64,000 nucleotides of DNA, from NCBI GenBank assembly GCA_021613535.1, contig CP075495.1, positions 15,748,001-15,812,000 on the forward strand. Reading direction: 5' to 3'. The stretch's first letter is position 1, and every line of letters starts with the position of its first letter. Below are positions 13,584 through 28,060 of this stretch, piece by piece. Source of the stretch: Adineta vaga (taxonomy: Eukaryota > Animalia > Rotifera). Under the pieces are notes generated by a model. It was not told the DNA's origin, ran no database searches, and saw only the letters and a list, made by a program, of their open reading frames with translations. Both the position numbers and the translations under genes were made by a program.

Positions 13584-15025
13584 TACGATAGCCAAAGCAT
13601 TTTTTTGCGACCCCTGCTTAATTAATATCTCAGATTTCAACGAAATTTTGTCAGCATATAGTCCCAAGTGATATAGGGAAAGGCTGAAAATTTCAACTTC
13701 TAAAATCTTTCCGCTCTTGAGATATTGAACCCACACCCTCAAGCACCCTCAGGTCAAAAATGACTATCATTGATGTGGAACATCTAGTGTGTTTCATCAT
13801 TCTTCAACGATAATGTTTTCAGAACTGAGATTTTGCAAATGTATACTACCGTAGGTGTACCACATACTGACACACTCAAAACGAATATTGGTCGTATCAG
13901 CCAATATAGAAAGGTCCTATGAATCTTACATACCCTGCCTACGTTGTGGTTAGACTCATTTTCACTTATGAGTGAATTAAGAGCTCTCGCTTGGGAATTA
14001 AGTAGTGGTATCCTGATTGTTGATATTCATCGCATAGAAATTTATTCGATGCTGAGACACATAATATGCATGGAAAATATCTAAACTATGAAGCGGTTAC
14101 TATGATATTAGCTGTTTACTACCTCTCATTTTACATACCTACAGACTCTTTACCATATTTCACTGTAAAAAGAAGCGTCGAATTACAAACCCTCGAAAAG
14201 GATTGATGGTCGCGACATGAACCCTTTTTAGGTTAATGAACGTAAAGTACCCTCTCATAAACCCTTGTTTTCATAAACGTTGGTGAGGGTTTCTTATACG
14301 TTGCACTTTCATAAACCCTTTAAGGTAGATGAGCATTCATGTACCCTTAAAAAGTTTGTTCGTGTACCCTTTAGAAGAACCGTAGAAAAGAAAAGCTGTT
14401 TTCGAGGGTTTATGAAGTTAATGAACCCTTTAAGGGTATACGAAAGTGCAACGTATAAAATACCCTTCCTAGAACTTATGAGGTTAATAAACCCCTAAAA
14501 AGGGTTTATTATTCTTCGCTTTTTTTTACAGTGTTGTATACATAAAAGTCGAAAGGCCAGATTTTTGAAAACTGTTATCAATAGATTTAGAGTGCTACTA
14601 CTTAATTCCCAAGCGGGAGCTTTTAACTCACTCATAAGCGAAAATGAGCCTGACTACAAGATAGACAGGTCATCTATGACCTATGATATTTGGCTATATT
14701 CTCTAATACGGCCAATCATGATTTCGGGTATGTCAGTATGTTGGGTACCTATAATAGTGTATACCCACAAAGTTTCATGACTTTAAACCTTATTGTTAAG
14801 AAATGGCAGAATGCACAATGTATATGACTTACATCCATTATAATCAATTTTGACTTTAGGTGGTACTATTGTGGATTCAATTTCTCGAGAAAGGAAGAGT
14901 TTTAAGAGCTAAAATTTTCAGCATTCTCATATTTCACTGAGCGCTACATACCGGCAAAATTTCATCGAAATCTGAGATATCGATTGAGCAGAAGGTGTCG
15001 TGATTTTCGTGCATTGACTCCTGTG
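13584..15025. mobile_element. Old DNA transposon relic bounded by ~180-bp diverged inverted repeats
   Basis: 13584-13765 is the approximate reverse complement of 14845-15025 (ATATCTCAGATTTCAACGAAATTTTG vs CAAAATTTCATCGAAATCTGAGATAT; GCTGAAAATTT vs AAATTTTCAGC). No clear TSD. Confidence 0.55.
14161..14533. mobile_element. 373-bp foldback MITE with CACTG termini (CMC/CACTA-like), nested in the element above
   Basis: TIR CACTGTAAAAAGAAGCG / CGCTTTTTTTTACAGTG. Internal inverted block TATACGTTGCACTTTC / GAAAGTGCAACGTATA; repeated AAACCCT/AGGGTTT units; possible TT TSD. Confidence 0.8.
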
Positions 15026-22848: not shown

Positions 22849-23699
22849 ACGCACCACCAATATAATGAAAACTATATAGATGGCTGCACAAGCTAAATGT
22901 ATTCAAGGTGAAAACCATATTTAGACAAACTTTCTCACAATAAAAAATACATCATTCGAATCTATATTACATTTCGAATTTTTTTAATACCTGAATTTCA
23001 TGAAAAGACTTAATCTAGGTAAAATGTATCACTGGAACTAAAATCTGTCAATAAAAGTATAAGTCATGGGACGCGCTTTGACATCTAACCAGTATAGATT
23101 CTCACTTCATTAATGCGCTTTCACTACAGAAAAAGATTTTAGAATAATTTTTATACGAAAAAATGTATAATTTAATTTCAGACAAATAAGTATGTCTTAA
23201 TACGAATAAGTACATAACAATGCGCCATTGTATACAGAATTCAAAAAGCATAAAGATATATTGTACTCTTTAAGATATTGACATAACTTTAACTATTTAC
23301 CAAAAAATTATTCGTTGCGATTACATCTCAATAACCGCATACAATAATTAATGATCATTTTCTTCGATTAAATGCAATAAGATTATAATCCGTGTCAAGT
23401 TGTTATAATAATCGATGTTCTGATCTGATTGATGCAAATTTAATTCTGAGGAAAAAAAGCAAAGGCAATATACGAACGAAAAAGCTAAATAAATGTTCTG
23501 TAAACATAAATACATGTTGTAGATCATATAAGATTTCAATTGATTGAAATATGAAGTTGCACAAACTATTTGATTCAAAATAGAAGAGATAACAAAAAAT
23601 ATAAGTATTTCATCGTTACAAATCCTGATATTTTTCGATCAATAACGCTTTTTACAGTATACTCATATTGAAGTATATGTCGTTTCTCGTCTTTGTTTT

Positions 23700-25130
23700 A
23701 TGCATAATAATGACAAAAATCATTTATTTAATACGTCTAGATTAGTTTAATTTGATCAAAATAACGAAAATATATTATTATAATTGATATCAATGAATTG
23801 ATAAACGATGTGCAACGCTAACCGATGCGTATTTAACACCAAGAAAGAAAGCAAAACCTATACAGACAAAAAAACCAAAAAAATGTACGAAGAATATACA
23901 TATATGTAGAAGATCATAGAGAATTTCGATTGGTCGACAAGTAGTAATAGAAGCCATTTGATTAAGAAAAGACGAACTAATAACAAATATAAATATTTGT
24001 CGATACCAACAGAACCATTGATAAGGATTTTGAAGATAAGTAAGAGGAACATTGTTAAAATGTAATTGAGTCAAACAGATGAGAAAAAGAGAAACAACAG
24101 ATAGAATGATGTTGATATTGTTCATATGGATATAGAACTATTAATATTATCGATAGGAATCGTCGCTGATAATGCACATTGTGCTACAAACAGATAACAG
24201 AATAAAATTCATTAAATTAGATAAATCATTTGTTGAATAGCTGGAATAGTAGAAGATGTCAAATAATCGAATCTATTTTAGTTTCCATATACAAATATTT
24301 ACATGAAATCACGTGATGATGAGCAACTAATGGAATTAAACATTATTTTAATTGAAAATTCTCTCATTTAACTTACTAAAATCAGTCTAGAACTAGTTTC
24401 AATTTTCCACCTAAACTACTCAATGTCACAGCTTGTTCTTCTTCAAAAGATTCCTCTCACAAGGATATATAAATCAATAAGAATTTCTTAATATGAGTTT
24501 ATAGTCATAGAACATAATTGCTCTCGAAAAAAGATCAAATTATTCATATTAAATACTGACTACAAAAAACCATAAGTAGCTCGACTTGACATGTCGCAAG
24601 AAAAATTCGAAACGCTTCGCTATAATTAAACAACTAAGTTCATCTTCATTAGAATTGAAACCTCGTACTCTTGCTTATGTCATTGAAACTGATATATATA
24701 TATATATATTTCTTACTAGCAAAAGCCAATTGATAAGGTGTATATATTATTGATGATTGGTTCATTTTAGATAATGATAATTTAGCAATGTTCTCTAATC
24801 TTGTGTTTAGTAATTGTGAACAGATGCGAAAAGTAATGCATAAGAAAAATATAACAAAATACACAAATTGCACTCGAAGATACCAAATGAAAAAACGGAT
24901 AATCCTTGTTTTCAATCCAATAAATAATTATTATTAATCAAAATATACAACATAGCGATTGATGTTGTATACTCATTGTAACAATCTAGAGCGATCATTC
25001 CATACCCATTCTGCACTTTGATATTTGTCCTCTTATCGATCATATCTTCACCCACGCAGTTCTCTTTATCTGATATCATCCTCCAGATTTAGAATGCACT
25101 TGCTCTTTTATCGAATGTTCTTGTTTTAGT
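23700..25130 (-). pseudogene. Decayed multi-pass membrane protein gene, copy A
   Basis: Hydrophobic segments KTRIIRFFIWYLRVQFVYF... and MNNINIILS...YLQNPYQWFCW...FFLGVKYASV, with stops. Paralogous to 27090-28060. Confidence 0.5.
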
Positions 25131-25166
25131 GATAAGAACATTTTTCTGTCACGTATGATATTTTTC

Positions 25167-25304
25167 TGTAACGCGATACTGAATATTCCGAGTACTATGT
25201 ATAGGACGAGGAATATGCAGTAGAGCATGTCTTTTCTGGAATGAAATAAAGATATATTCACCATCATATTCCATCGTACGGATCCTAGTCCAGAAATTGT
25301 CACA
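25167..25304 (+). repeat. LTR (138 bp, TG...CA), followed by PBS TGGCGATCCTGGCAGGAG (25307-25324)
   Basis: TGTAAC...GTCACA with an internal AATAAA; near-identical inverted copy at 25914-26055. Confidence 0.85.
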
Positions 25305-25317
25305 ATTGGCGATCCTG

Positions 25318-25833
25318 GCAGGAGAGTATTAGTAGACCACTTGTTGACAGCTCGAGTATATTCGGCCACACGTAGTAAAAATTGTCGTGGTCGATCAGTT
25401 GGTTTACCCGAAAATGTTGGAAAAGATGAGATAGGTGGCACAATAATTGTGGTAGAGGCAGATGGTGTCAATTGGATGAGATTGTCGTCAGAACTGTCTT
25501 GATAAAATGACTGTCGTTCTGGTCGCGGTGGCGTGTTATTATTGAGTGTTGTAGTAGAGAGTGATGTACCCTTTTGTTCAAGAATCAAGTTTTTGAGTTG
25601 AACGAGTTCTTGTCGTAATGAACGTACTTCATCTGTAATACGTGGTTCAATAACTTGTAACTTTTGTTCCTGTTGGTTTCGGAGTGTATCGAGTTCGGTT
25701 TGGAGTTCAGGCTGAAGCTGAACCAAAGCTTGTTGTAGAGAACTTATATCATTTGCTTGATGAACTAATGAGTCCGAGGCAAGCCGTACAGCTTCATCAA
25801 GTTTCACCTTTTTTTTTCATCTGGACGGGACAT
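25318..25833 (-). mobile_element. Truncated Ty3/Gypsy-like gag
   Basis: Coiled coil, then PTFSGKPTDRPRQFL..V.EY...VNKWS (retrotransposon gag motif). Likely native ATG at 25833 with a frameshift in an A9 run; lies downstream of the minus-strand PBS/LTR. Confidence 0.8.
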
Positions 25834-25913
25834 GATACTTGGTTATGAAAGTGATTTAGTACTAAGTGGTAATTGAGAACGGGAGAAAGATTCGAATAGA
25901 CAGGGTCGCCAAT

Positions 25914-26055
25914 TGTGACAATTTCTGGACTAGGATCCGTACGATGGAATATGATGGTGAATATATCTTTATTTCATTCCAGAAAAGACATGCTCTACTG
26001 CATATTCCTCGTCCTATATATAATTAGTACTCGGAATATTCAGTATCGCGTTACA
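25914..26055 (-). repeat. LTR (142 bp) in inverted orientation, with PBS TGGCGACCCTG
   Basis: Reverse complement of 25167-25304 apart from a small indel region. Confidence 0.85.
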
Positions 26056-27089
26056 GAAAAATATTAACTTTCAATTTAAACATTATTCATTCTAGAAAAA
26101 TAAATGAATGAATATTGTTTAATAAAGATATTGAAAGAATAGTGAAAAGAAATAATTATATATTGACACGTTTGGAATATATAAATCATTTATATTATAT
26201 TCATAACTGGAACTTTTCATTTATTTCTTTAACCTCTTCAATAATTAAAGTTTATTGTATTTTTTCTATAACGAATATCTTTGATAAGTTTTTTTGACTG
26301 ATTTTTAAGAAAGGGAACCGTTTTTAATAAAATTTTTCGTAATCGATTTATCATATTCTATTCAATCGCTTTTATTAATAATTTTTTCGTTACGAATAAG
26401 TTTTTCTTTATAATGATAAAATAAATCAATCAACCGTTTCGTTTCTTTCTTCTTTATGAAAGTGACGTATACTAATCGAAACTTTCCTTACAAAGGTGAT
26501 AGAATGAAGAGAATATATAAAACGAAAATGTTCTATCGTTGTACATCATTGTATTGAACAGAAAACATTCAATTTCTTGTATGGCAGTTTTTTATGATCA
26601 CTTGTTGTGTGTCATTACCAACTTTTACATTTCTCGCGCAAGTACCACGGTTATGGATCGAAAACGAAAATGTCTTATATGTAAAAGTAACTCAAAATAT
26701 TCAGGTCATAATAGCTGCTATCATGGTAATCGTTACAGCATACATAGAGGATGTCGGTTATATAAAATTCATAACTTTTCTGTAATGAACATGTTAAACA
26801 TATTCACAGCTGGTGTTACTGCTCTTTTGGCTTCAACATTTCTAAAAGATTATTTTAATGCATACGTGTATATATGTTTCGAAGTTTTATTTTCATTTTT
26901 ATGTGTTTCTTATATACAGAATAATGAAAATCAGAGATGATTCACTATTTGAAAGGAATCTTTTTTCTTTCAATGTATATCATAATCTCTTCAAAACAAA
27001 TGATTCATTGTCATAAAATCATTGAATCTATTATAGATTTCTAATCCATCAGTATTAAAAAATGAAAAATGTTTTCATAAATAAATAAA

Positions 27090-28060
27090 TGTTATTACGA
27101 TGAACTTAGCTAATTTATAAAATCGATGTACAAACCTGACTGATGCAAAATTGATACCAAGGAAAAATGTAAAAAAGACACATGTAATAACATCAAATAA
27201 TTGTACTATAATCATTGATATATATTGAAAATTAAAGAGAACTTTGATTGATCGACAAGCAGTACTACTGATGATTTGATTGAAGAAATTGCAAATAATA
27301 AAAATGATTAGAATTTGTCAACCCCAACAGAACCATTGATAAGAATTTTGAAGATATTTCGAAGGAATATGATTAAGATCGAATTGAATCCAATAAATTG
27401 TCGATAAAGAGATATAACATAGAATGAAGTTGATAACATTCATCTTCATGTAATTATTAATATTAACAGGAACTGTTAATGATAATAAACATCGTCCTAA
27501 ACAAAAAAAATCACACGTAAATGTTGATCGACAGAAATAAATAAATTATTACATAAAACAATTCGTAAGAACTATCTTTCATATTATTTGTTTATTTTTC
27601 ATAGACCTGATCTCTTTTCTTTTCTGAATCGAATGAATAATTAAATACTTACTTGCAACAGCCGATTCATGAGATGTATATACTATTGATGAATCATTAA
27701 TTGTAAATGTTAATGATGATTCATAATCCAATACTGTCACACGTATTATTTGTGGTCAAAAACCAAAAAAATAGATATTAATAACAATAAAAAGTATAGA
27801 AACTGTAATCGAAGAAATGAAGTAAATAAACGACTTATTCTTGTTTTCAATCTAAAAGAATATATATTACAAATGAATATTCAAATGGTAAGTATACCCA
27901 AAATGATTAAAATAAAAGAGTACAGAAGTATTTGTCATACATAAATTCGTTTGATGAATTGGAAACGAATGAATTGTTGCCATTTGATTTGATTTTTTAC
28001 TAAAACAATTTCTTGATTTCTTTAACAGTGTAGAGAGGATTCCTTGAATCGACATGTTCT
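27090..28060 (-). pseudogene. Decayed multi-pass membrane protein gene, copy B
   Basis: LKTRISRLFTSFLRLQFLYF..; MNVINFIL..YLQNSYQWFCWG*..FFLGINFASV. Shares the DNA ACAGAACCATTGATAAG.ATTTTGAAGATA with copy A. Confidence 0.5.

What the first reader, a model, noticed from the sequence alone, without database searches (positions are those of the whole stretch)
25158..26064. LTR retrotransposon relic with INVERTED LTRs and an apparently tRNA-copied 18-nt PBS
Seen: LTR(+)-PBS, then gag on the minus strand, then PBS-LTR(-). The two near-identical LTRs face each other instead of being direct repeats. The two PBSs differ: the right one reads TGGCGACCCTGTC and the left reads TGGCGATCCTGGCAGGAG. The complement of the left PBS (CT-CCTGC-CAGGATC-G-CCA) parses exactly as tRNA positions 59-76 (T-stem, Arg-like acceptor strand, discriminator, CCA). 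The next base does not match an A58. Established: retroviral plus-strand strong-stop DNA copies 18 nt of primer tRNA and stops at m1A58. Inference: a strong-stop DNA mis-annealed through CTCCTG microhomology to sense gag (codons TLL) and copied back to the 5' LTR, giving a self-complementary element. Unresolved: there is no direct TSD, and the flanks are themselves inverted (ATATTTTTC | GAAAAATAT), which also fits a DNA-level foldback duplication. Transcripts would form ~150-bp dsRNA arms, a possible small-RNA source.
Basis: partly seen in the sequence, partly recalled or inferred. Interest (0 to 1): 0.75.

Follow-up and report, generated by a model that had tools for sequence, protein, structure and literature searches.

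The report
Misprimed retrotransposon copy with facing ends
A 1.1-kb insertion, likely on only one chromosome copy of what is likely a bdelloid rotifer, joins a complete retrotransposon end repeat and a tRNA-like primer site to a reversed piece of the same element, likely because a dead-end reverse-transcription product primed on the wrong strand; it is a broken copy that cannot spread, but it likely preserves a copying intermediate that is normally discarded.

Summary
Short-read contigs from 4 of 4 runs hold the inverted core unchanged and show an empty allele. The insertion runs 24977 to 26058/26064: a complete 328-bp LTR, an 18-nt tRNA-Arg-like primer site, reversed Ty3/gypsy gag, the family's own primer site, and only the last 145-151 bp of a second LTR. 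The 'inverted flanks' are LTR interior. There is no target duplication; 22 host bases are missing and the right end sits in a 6-nt microhomology. Related contigs carry the right-hand primer site, none seen carries the left. Eukaryote-type tRNA-Arg(ACG) genes from unidentified organisms match the left site at 17 of 18 positions; this organism's own tRNA was not examined. Best reading (about 0.8): a dead-end plus-strand strong-stop DNA annealed its tRNA-copied tail to sense gag, was extended backwards and was inserted. An m1A58 stop fits but is not shown; small RNAs are untested. The scan noted similar joins in other genomes (unreviewed notes). New variant of a known copying error; interest 0.45.

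The parts
24977..25304 (+). Complete LTR, 328 bp, TG...CA, 8 of 9 terminal letters inverted; outer end abuts host DNA exactly where the empty allele departs
   Evidence: (joint at 24976, related contigs start at 24977)
25196..25203 (+). TATA-like motif (TATATA in the right copy at 26017-26022); function inferred
   Evidence: two related contigs per run stop matching at 25198 and go on as a TATA box (table 7)
25245..25250 (+). AATAAA, likely polyadenylation signal (mirror copy starts at 25973 on the minus strand)
25307..25324 (+). 18-nt tRNA-Arg-like primer site after a 2-nt spacer; 25307 = tRNA position 76, 25324 = position 59; likely copied from the primer tRNA
   Evidence: (17 of 18 to eukaryote-type tRNA-Arg(ACG)), 44, 53
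25313..25324 (-). Junction zone that reads both as tRNA positions 59-70 and as in-frame gag codons L-L-P-G, where 10 of 10 homologues have L-L-(Q/K/R/L)-G; likely the mis-annealing site
25325..25833 (-). 5' part of a Ty3/gypsy gag (about 170 of 360-410 codons); start codon at 25833, frame broken in the A-run at 25809-25817, cut off at the junction; no pol, no polypurine tract
   Evidence: the break is in the 653-nt contig of 4 of 4 runs
25834..25900 (-). 5' untranslated leader
25901..25911 (-). Family-type primer site (11-nt core, one mismatch to the left site), shared with related contigs
   Evidence: (contigs matching from 25892 and from 25882)
25914..26064 (-). Partial LTR: the last 145-151 bp (mirror of 25158/25164-25304); the outer 177-183 bp are missing
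26059..26064 (.). 6-nt microhomology (AAATAT) shared by LTR interior and host DNA at the right junction; 22 host letters of the empty allele are absent
   Evidence: tables 5, 5c; chance at a given place 0.0016

Best explanation
The insertion is a dead Ty3/gypsy fragment in which a complete LTR and a tRNA-Arg-like primer site are joined to a reversed 5' piece of the same element, and it likely arose inside a virus-like particle when a plus-strand strong-stop DNA annealed its likely tRNA-copied tail to sense-strand gag and was extended backwards. Steps: (1) shown: the family primer site differs from the left one at 7 of 18 positions; inferred: the primer is tRNA-Arg(ACG), pairing over about 11 nt with one mismatch. 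(2) Inferred from yeast Ty1/Ty3 and retroviruses: the first plus strand copies the LTR and then the tRNA up to about position 59-60 (an m1A58 stop would fit); its tail cannot pair with the family primer site, so it is displaced as a dead-end single strand. (3) Inferred: the tail found up to 11 of 12 complementary letters in sense gag (RNA or a growing plus strand; not resolved) and primed synthesis back through gag, the family primer site and the LTR, giving a duplex with a U3 end on both sides. (4) Shown: the left end is the exact LTR terminus; inferred: integrase joined it. (5) Shown: the right end lacks 177-183 bp of LTR, 22 host letters and any duplication, and sits in a 6-nt microhomology; inferred: host microhomology repair made it, most likely as a deletion after a two-ended insertion (about 55%), otherwise at a one-ended insertion (about 45%). 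It encodes no working protein and cannot transpose. If transcribed through, it is predicted to form a hairpin with a stem of about 95 pairs and to give antisense gag RNA; this is untested.
For: Real in 4 of 4 runs from 4 studies; inner depth 0.51-0.71 of flank depth and an empty allele. In 3 of 4 runs the depth of bin 25310-25370 is explained to the decimal by three listed contigs, in the fourth to within 2.3 (the LTR contig's depth was not listed), so no further contig carrying the left-type site was laid; at least three related contigs per run match the right-type site (two loose ends before 25892, one joint to 25882). Of 23 metagenome matches to the pattern, 12 lie in an ARAGORN tRNA call and all 12 are Arg; 4 are eukaryote-type ACG genes (no encoded CCA, T-run behind) identical to the left site over positions 60-73, 17 of 18 with CCA. 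The six letters at positions 60-65 have a composition chance of 1.7e-4 and do not recur in the retained sense strand. A one-step DNA switch between gag and the family site needs one more substitution that happens to give the tRNA letter: either at position 70, or in the codon that is Pro here and Q/K/R/L in 10 of 10 homologues. The outer left end is the exact LTR terminus, which a reverse-transcription product predicts and a DNA foldback does not. Precedent: dead-end tRNA-copying plus strands are displaced and accumulate in yeast Ty particles (PMC5371799 section 2.2); 18-nt stop before m1A58 in retroviruses (PMC8599865 passages); host joining of the second end with deletions (PMC7912079 passage); microhomology-mediated deletions in bdelloid LTR elements (PMC5408684 passage).
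Against: This organism's own tRNA genes were not examined, and the four matching genes come from unidentified organisms (three from one assembly; flanks uninformative). Position 59 differs in 4 of 4 of them; only 2 of the 12 tRNA calls, both prokaryote-type, give 18 of 18. I searched for this pattern on purpose, and another eukaryote-type Arg(ACG) array differs at positions 59 and 65 (L008), so more than one T-stem would have counted and the true chance is a few times 1.7e-4. Only about two letters (positions 66 and 70) tell a tRNA copy from a gag/primer-site chimera. The parent's gag DNA beyond the junction was not seen: no identical parent is in these contigs and no DNA relatives were found. 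No target duplication proves integrase action. The element-to-host right junction is not shown in the printed tables; extra depth at 26042-26102 fits it in 2 of 4 runs and is absent in the other 2. One search's tables were cut (19, 47 and 124 rows not shown). One occurrence only.
Confidence: 0.8

Rival explanations
1. Two ordinary copies of the family inserted at or near one site in opposite orientation (one nested in the other), and later microhomology deletions joined the first copy's primer site to the second copy's gag and trimmed the right end.
For: Explains the exact left terminus and the private differences between the arms; bdelloid LTR elements often suffer microhomology deletions (PMC5408684 passage).
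Against: Needs two insertions and two deletions; needs the first copy to carry a primer site that no related contig shows, or one substitution plus a 1.7e-4 coincidence at positions 60-65; no near-identical copy is seen elsewhere in these contigs.
Confidence: 0.09
2. A DNA-level foldback (replication or repair template switch) within one inserted element copied its LTR and primer site in reverse and lost the rest.
For: Gag and the complement of the family primer site share a few letters at the junction; a microhomology junction at the right end shows that DNA repair acted here.
Against: The inverted 'flanks' that suggested it are LTR interior. The reversed copy would have to end by chance exactly at the LTR terminus and at the host breakpoint, and needs the same extra substitution and T-stem coincidence.
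Confidence: 0.07
3. The strong-stop DNA primed on genomic RNA and simply ran off the RNA's 5' end, so that 26058-26064 marks the transcription start (a sub-case of the best explanation with another right end).
For: The right arm holds only the 3' part of the LTR, as an RNA template would.
Against: The arm runs about 40 nt beyond the TATA-like motif, i.e. likely into U3; no transcription start was mapped.
Confidence: 0.15
4. Assembly artefact.
For: No single listed contig spans the whole stretch, and the right junction is not visible in 2 of 4 runs.
Against: The 653-nt core with both inward-facing LTR ends is identical in 4 of 4 independently assembled runs.
Confidence: 0.02

Closest known systems
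Dead-end plus-strand strong-stop DNA of yeast Ty1/Ty3 (PPT recycling; PMC5371799 section 2.2, read whole)
   Same: Short primer site that is not corrected to the tRNA sequence; a first plus strand that copies the tRNA end and is displaced as a free single strand.
   Different: Yeast copies 12 nt of initiator tRNA-Met and the product is discarded; here the likely copy is 17-18 nt of an elongator tRNA-Arg and was extended on the wrong strand and fixed in an animal genome.
Retroviral plus-strand strong stop before m1A58 (HIV-1, M-MLV; PMC8599865, passages)
   Same: The match to tRNA ends at position 59-60, just before 58.
   Different: Retroviruses have a full 18-nt primer site, so the copy transfers correctly; here the family site matches at 11 of 18.
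Aberrant and asymmetric proviruses: one end joined by integrase, the other by host enzymes (PMC7912079, passage); HIV-1 proviruses with unequal LTRs or inversions (PMC9278108, passages)
   Same: One exact end, one trimmed end with host loss; unequal LTRs ascribed to reverse-transcription misalignment.
   Different: Those LTRs stay direct repeats with an inner deletion; here they face each other and the outer part is missing.
Bdelloid Ty3/gypsy-like LTR retrotransposons Juno, Vesta, TelKA, Mag (PMC5408684, parts 1-2 of 5 and passages)
   Same: TG...CA ends, LTR length within the 159-551 bp range, gag homologues named from Adineta ricciae and Rotaria magnacalcarata at 36-47% identity with Retrotrans_gag and a zinc knuckle.
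   Different: No pol is left, so the clade was not assigned; the parts read describe no inverted copy.
Maize Mu killer
   Same: An inverted duplication of a transposon's 5' end that could give hairpin RNA against its own family.
   Different: Mu killer comes from a DNA transposon and its silencing is proven; here transcription and silencing are untested.

Membership tests
Ty3/gypsy LTR retrotransposon (origin of the parts) | Gag of the Retrotrans_gag / Ty3 capsid type | tested here: met
   10 homologues at E 1e-15 or better; 7 of 7 homologues in A1 hit PF03732, 4 of 7 PF19259; the window fragment alone hits neither at E 0.01
Ty3/gypsy LTR retrotransposon (origin of the parts) | LTR with TG...CA ends followed by a tRNA primer site | tested here: met
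Ty3/gypsy LTR retrotransposon (origin of the parts) | pol in the order PR-RT-RH-IN | tested here: inconclusive
   no pol in the insertion; no DNA relatives found
Intact LTR element or TRIM | Two direct LTRs, polypurine tract, 4-6 nt target duplication | tested here: not met
   LTRs inverted and unequal, two primer sites, no duplication
Aberrant strong-stop transfer product | Complete LTR ending exactly at U3, followed by primer-tRNA sequence that differs from the family primer site | tested here: met
Aberrant strong-stop transfer product | The copied letters match the host's own primer tRNA | tested here: inconclusive
   17 of 18 to eukaryote-type tRNA-Arg(ACG) of unidentified organisms; none in the window; no genome held; this organism's tRNA set not examined
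Aberrant strong-stop transfer product | Landing site complementary to the 3' tail in the parent element | tested here: inconclusive
   L-L-x-G codons are in frame and conserved in 10 of 10 homologues; the parent's DNA past the junction was not seen
Aberrant strong-stop transfer product | Stop caused by m1A58 | not testable with these tools
   positions 59-65 are also gag codons, so the copied length is not readable
DIRS (tyrosine-recombinase retrotransposons with inverted repeats; features recalled) | Tyrosine recombinase, no tRNA primer site, inverted repeats at both termini | tested here: not met
   Ty3-type gag, two tRNA primer sites, termini not mirror images
MITE / foldback DNA transposon (features recalled) | Terminal inverted repeats, target duplication, many copies | tested here: not met
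   left end 24977 has no mirror at the right end, no duplication, single-haplotype depth
Hairpin or small-RNA silencing locus | Transcription and small RNAs from the arms | not tested
   fold predicted only

The most novel reading that the evidence does not exclude
This is a germline fossil showing that an animal Ty3/gypsy element replicates by yeast-type PPT recycling, with a dead-end plus strand stopped at m1A58 of tRNA-Arg(ACG), and the mis-primed product became a heritable hairpin/antisense silencer of its own family in an asexual animal, which would fit the absence of any identical parent copy from these contigs.
Probability: 0.12. Interest if true: 0.75.

Novelty: new variant of a known kind. 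Interest (0 to 1): 0.45.

Why it matters
Reverse-transcription intermediates of animal LTR retrotransposons are rarely seen; the yeast model for elements with short or mismatched primer sites rests on Ty1 and Ty3. A fixed copy of the discarded strand would name the primer tRNA, bound the stop site and show that such strands can mis-prime and be inserted. With the empty allele present, the insertion's ends can be read directly. The same accident builds an inverted repeat with inward-facing promoters, a possible route by which an element makes its own silencing trigger in animals that cannot purge transposons by sex. As it stands it is one broken copy with no function shown.

Tried and rejected
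No whole genome is held. No tRNA gene in the window; no Rfam family over 24500-26600 except one chance match at E 0.89. DNA relatives of gag: none in viral contigs (27 and 37 pattern stretches, 0 confirmed) or genome contigs (38 stretches, 0 confirmed); metagenome contigs were not searched with gag. tRNA pattern in viral contigs: 5 loci, no eukaryote-type gene; in genome contigs: 13 loci, one eukaryote-type Arg(ACG) array differing at two positions. Flank ORFs of two tRNA loci did not identify their organisms. No RNA holder listed among 24 runs; this is no evidence on expression. The bacterial promoter scan does not apply to an animal. The last line printed parses the wrong strand and is not used. 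My first reading that the right arm ends at the transcription start (note) was lowered after the TATA-like motif was found inside it. Integrase use of the internal TGTAAC motif at 26050-26055 was rejected: the element runs at least 3 letters beyond it. Paper searches for an inverted LTR element seeded by a tRNA-copied strong stop found none; the library lacks most older subscription papers, and I recall early retroviral vector work on strand-transfer errors that I could not read. PMC13524379 (passages) and PMC7943196 (passages) gave nothing on rotifer primer sites; the one supplement of PMC5408684 was listed, not opened; PMC7192593 was seen only in a search listing.

Full report
What was checked. 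The window is AT-rich intron-bearing DNA. Gag homologues that carry names are from Adineta ricciae and Rotaria magnacalcarata, so the host is likely a bdelloid rotifer; that is an inference. The inverted arms are there as reported: 25158-25317 against 25901-26064, 96% over 164 columns, with a gag fragment on the minus strand between them and two primer sites that agree at 10 of the first 11 and 11 of 18 letters.

It is real. Twenty of 24 listed runs hold part of the stretch, 8 of them half its words or more. I laid 4 of the 24, one from each of four studies (assembled contigs, not raw reads; they may all be one clonal line, and one may be the window's own source). Each has the same 653-nt contig, 25283-25935, with no difference and no gap. 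It starts in the left LTR end, crosses the junction, and ends in the right LTR end, so the facing orientation is not a long-read artefact. Its depth is 0.51-0.71 of the flank's, and the shared LTR contig is 1.7-1.9 times deeper than it in the 3 runs where that depth is listed: one haplotype carries the element, with two LTR copies.

All 4 runs show a joint 24976->26059 that skips 1082 letters and holds 22 others (tables 5, 5c; short side 30 letters, one below the tool's bridging threshold). Related contigs begin matching at 24977 and run through 25167 without a break. Position 24977 starts TG and is the only place in 24000-25290 with 8 of 9 letters inverted to the LTR end at 25304. The left LTR is therefore 328 bp, inside the 159-551 bp range given for bdelloid LTRs (PMC5408684, part 2). 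The right arm is only its last 145-151 bp. The 9-nt 'inverted flanks' are LTR interior. The right junction lies in six letters shared by LTR and host (chance 0.0016 at a given place); there is no direct duplication, and 22 host letters are gone. The element-to-host right junction is not printed; extra depth fits it in 2 of 4 runs and is absent in 2.

Which primer site is normal. In each run two contigs match from 25892 into the first 11-14 letters of the right LTR and then diverge, and a 756-nt relative (about 85% alike in gag over 25333-25450) joins to 25882. So at least three relatives carry the right-hand site; the exact letter at the diagnostic position is not printed, and 19 rows of that table are hidden. 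Over 25310-25370 the depth is fully explained by three listed contigs in 3 of 4 runs and to within 2.3 in the fourth, so no other contig with the left-hand site was laid. The unbroken 653-nt contig also implies that no identical parent gag is in these assemblies, since it would have split the contig at the junction (inference; contigs show presence better than absence).

Is the left site a tRNA copy. A pattern made of a tRNA loop motif and positions 60-73 of the left site found 23 metagenome loci. ARAGORN calls a tRNA over the match in 12 of 23, all Arg. Four are eukaryote-type Arg(ACG) genes; with CCA added they match 17 of 18 positions, differing at 59. Two prokaryote-type genes match 18 of 18. 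Another eukaryote-type array differs at 59 and 65. The organisms are unidentified and this organism's own tRNA set was not examined, which leaves the decisive test open. The junction zone 25313-25324 also reads in frame as gag L-L-P-G, where 10 of 10 homologues have L-L-(Q 4, K 4, L 1, R 1)-G. Two things follow. First, the copied length cannot be read off: positions 59-65 could come from gag or from tRNA. Second, a plain DNA switch between gag and the family site needs one further substitution that happens to give the tRNA letter, and leaves the match at positions 60-65 (composition chance 1.7e-4, a few times more if other T-stems are allowed) as coincidence, whereas a tRNA-copied tail explains it as the reason for landing there.

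Mechanism. In Ty1 and Ty3 the first plus strand copies 12 nt of the primer tRNA, is displaced by later rounds from the same polypurine primer, and accumulates as a dead end, so the tRNA sequence is not inherited (PMC5371799 section 2.2). A family primer site that keeps a mismatch to its likely primer fits such a cycle. Retroviral enzymes stop one base before m1A58, after 18 nt (PMC8599865 passages). I infer that such a strand annealed by its tail to sense gag and was extended back through gag, the family primer site and the LTR. Whether the template was RNA or a growing plus strand is open. The right arm passes a TATA-like motif by about 40 nt, so it likely holds some U3 and need not end at the RNA start. 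The exact left end suggests integrase. The right end was likely made by microhomology repair, either as a later deletion (described for bdelloid LTR elements, PMC5408684 passage) or at a one-ended insertion (described for retroviruses, PMC7912079 passage); I put these at about 55:45. Overall confidence in the strong-stop origin is 0.8, which includes the RNA run-off sub-case (0.15); nested insertions 0.09, DNA foldback 0.07, artefact 0.02.

Consequence. Gag is frame-broken near its start and cut after about 170 codons; no pol is present; the copy cannot move. It lies between two diverged tandem host repeats (71% alike). A read-through RNA from about 25225 to 25995 is predicted to form 97 long-range pairs (164 for 25158-26064); with near-perfect arms that is expected and shows no function. 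No expression or small-RNA data were available.

Known and new. It works like the dead-end strong-stop and aberrant-transfer products known from yeast and retroviruses; it is not an intact LTR element, TRIM, DIRS or MITE. HIV-1 proviruses with unequal LTRs or inversions are reported (PMC9278108 passages), with direct LTRs. Seven searches of the paper library found no description of this inverted, tRNA-seeded form; older subscription literature is not covered. This scan's unreviewed notes report similar joins in other genomes and none for this sequence or genome; I did not test them and do not count them as evidence. Verdict: new variant of a known kind, interest 0.45.

Noticed in passing
window 25888-25911 (minus strand): The family primer site is shared with relatives for about 20 letters, well past its 11-nt core, and the extra part holds an 8-nt palindrome that also resembles the complement of a tRNA T-loop; it could be a second tRNA contact or a dimerisation signal (table 7).
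   Followed up: no
   Followed up: partly
window 24977-25306, related contigs: LTR relatives about 87-92% alike exist elsewhere in the genome, one followed directly by AT-rich host-like sequence (a likely solo or 3' LTR), but no identical parent.
   Followed up: partly
window 23400-24950 and 27100-27900: Diverged tandem duplication (67-80% alike) on both sides of the insertion, likely two paralogous host genes on the minus strand.
   Followed up: no
window 13614-14991: Inverted pair 13614-14006 / 14597-14991 at 71% with a degenerate palindrome 14286-14466 in the middle, in a GC-raised stretch: an old foldback or non-autonomous DNA element.
   Followed up: no
window 26401: A 16-letter insertion polymorphism in 3 of 4 runs; also 24760 differs from the window in 4 of 4 runs.
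   Followed up: no
L008 26-631: A 695-nt contig of a bacterial MAG holds four tandem eukaryote-type tRNA-Arg(ACG) genes, likely contamination.
   Followed up: no
literature lead (PMC5408684, part 2): Some bdelloid LTR families encode a DEDDy 3'-5' exonuclease of unknown role; trimming unpaired tRNA-copied tails of plus strands would be a possible job for it. Speculation.
   Followed up: no
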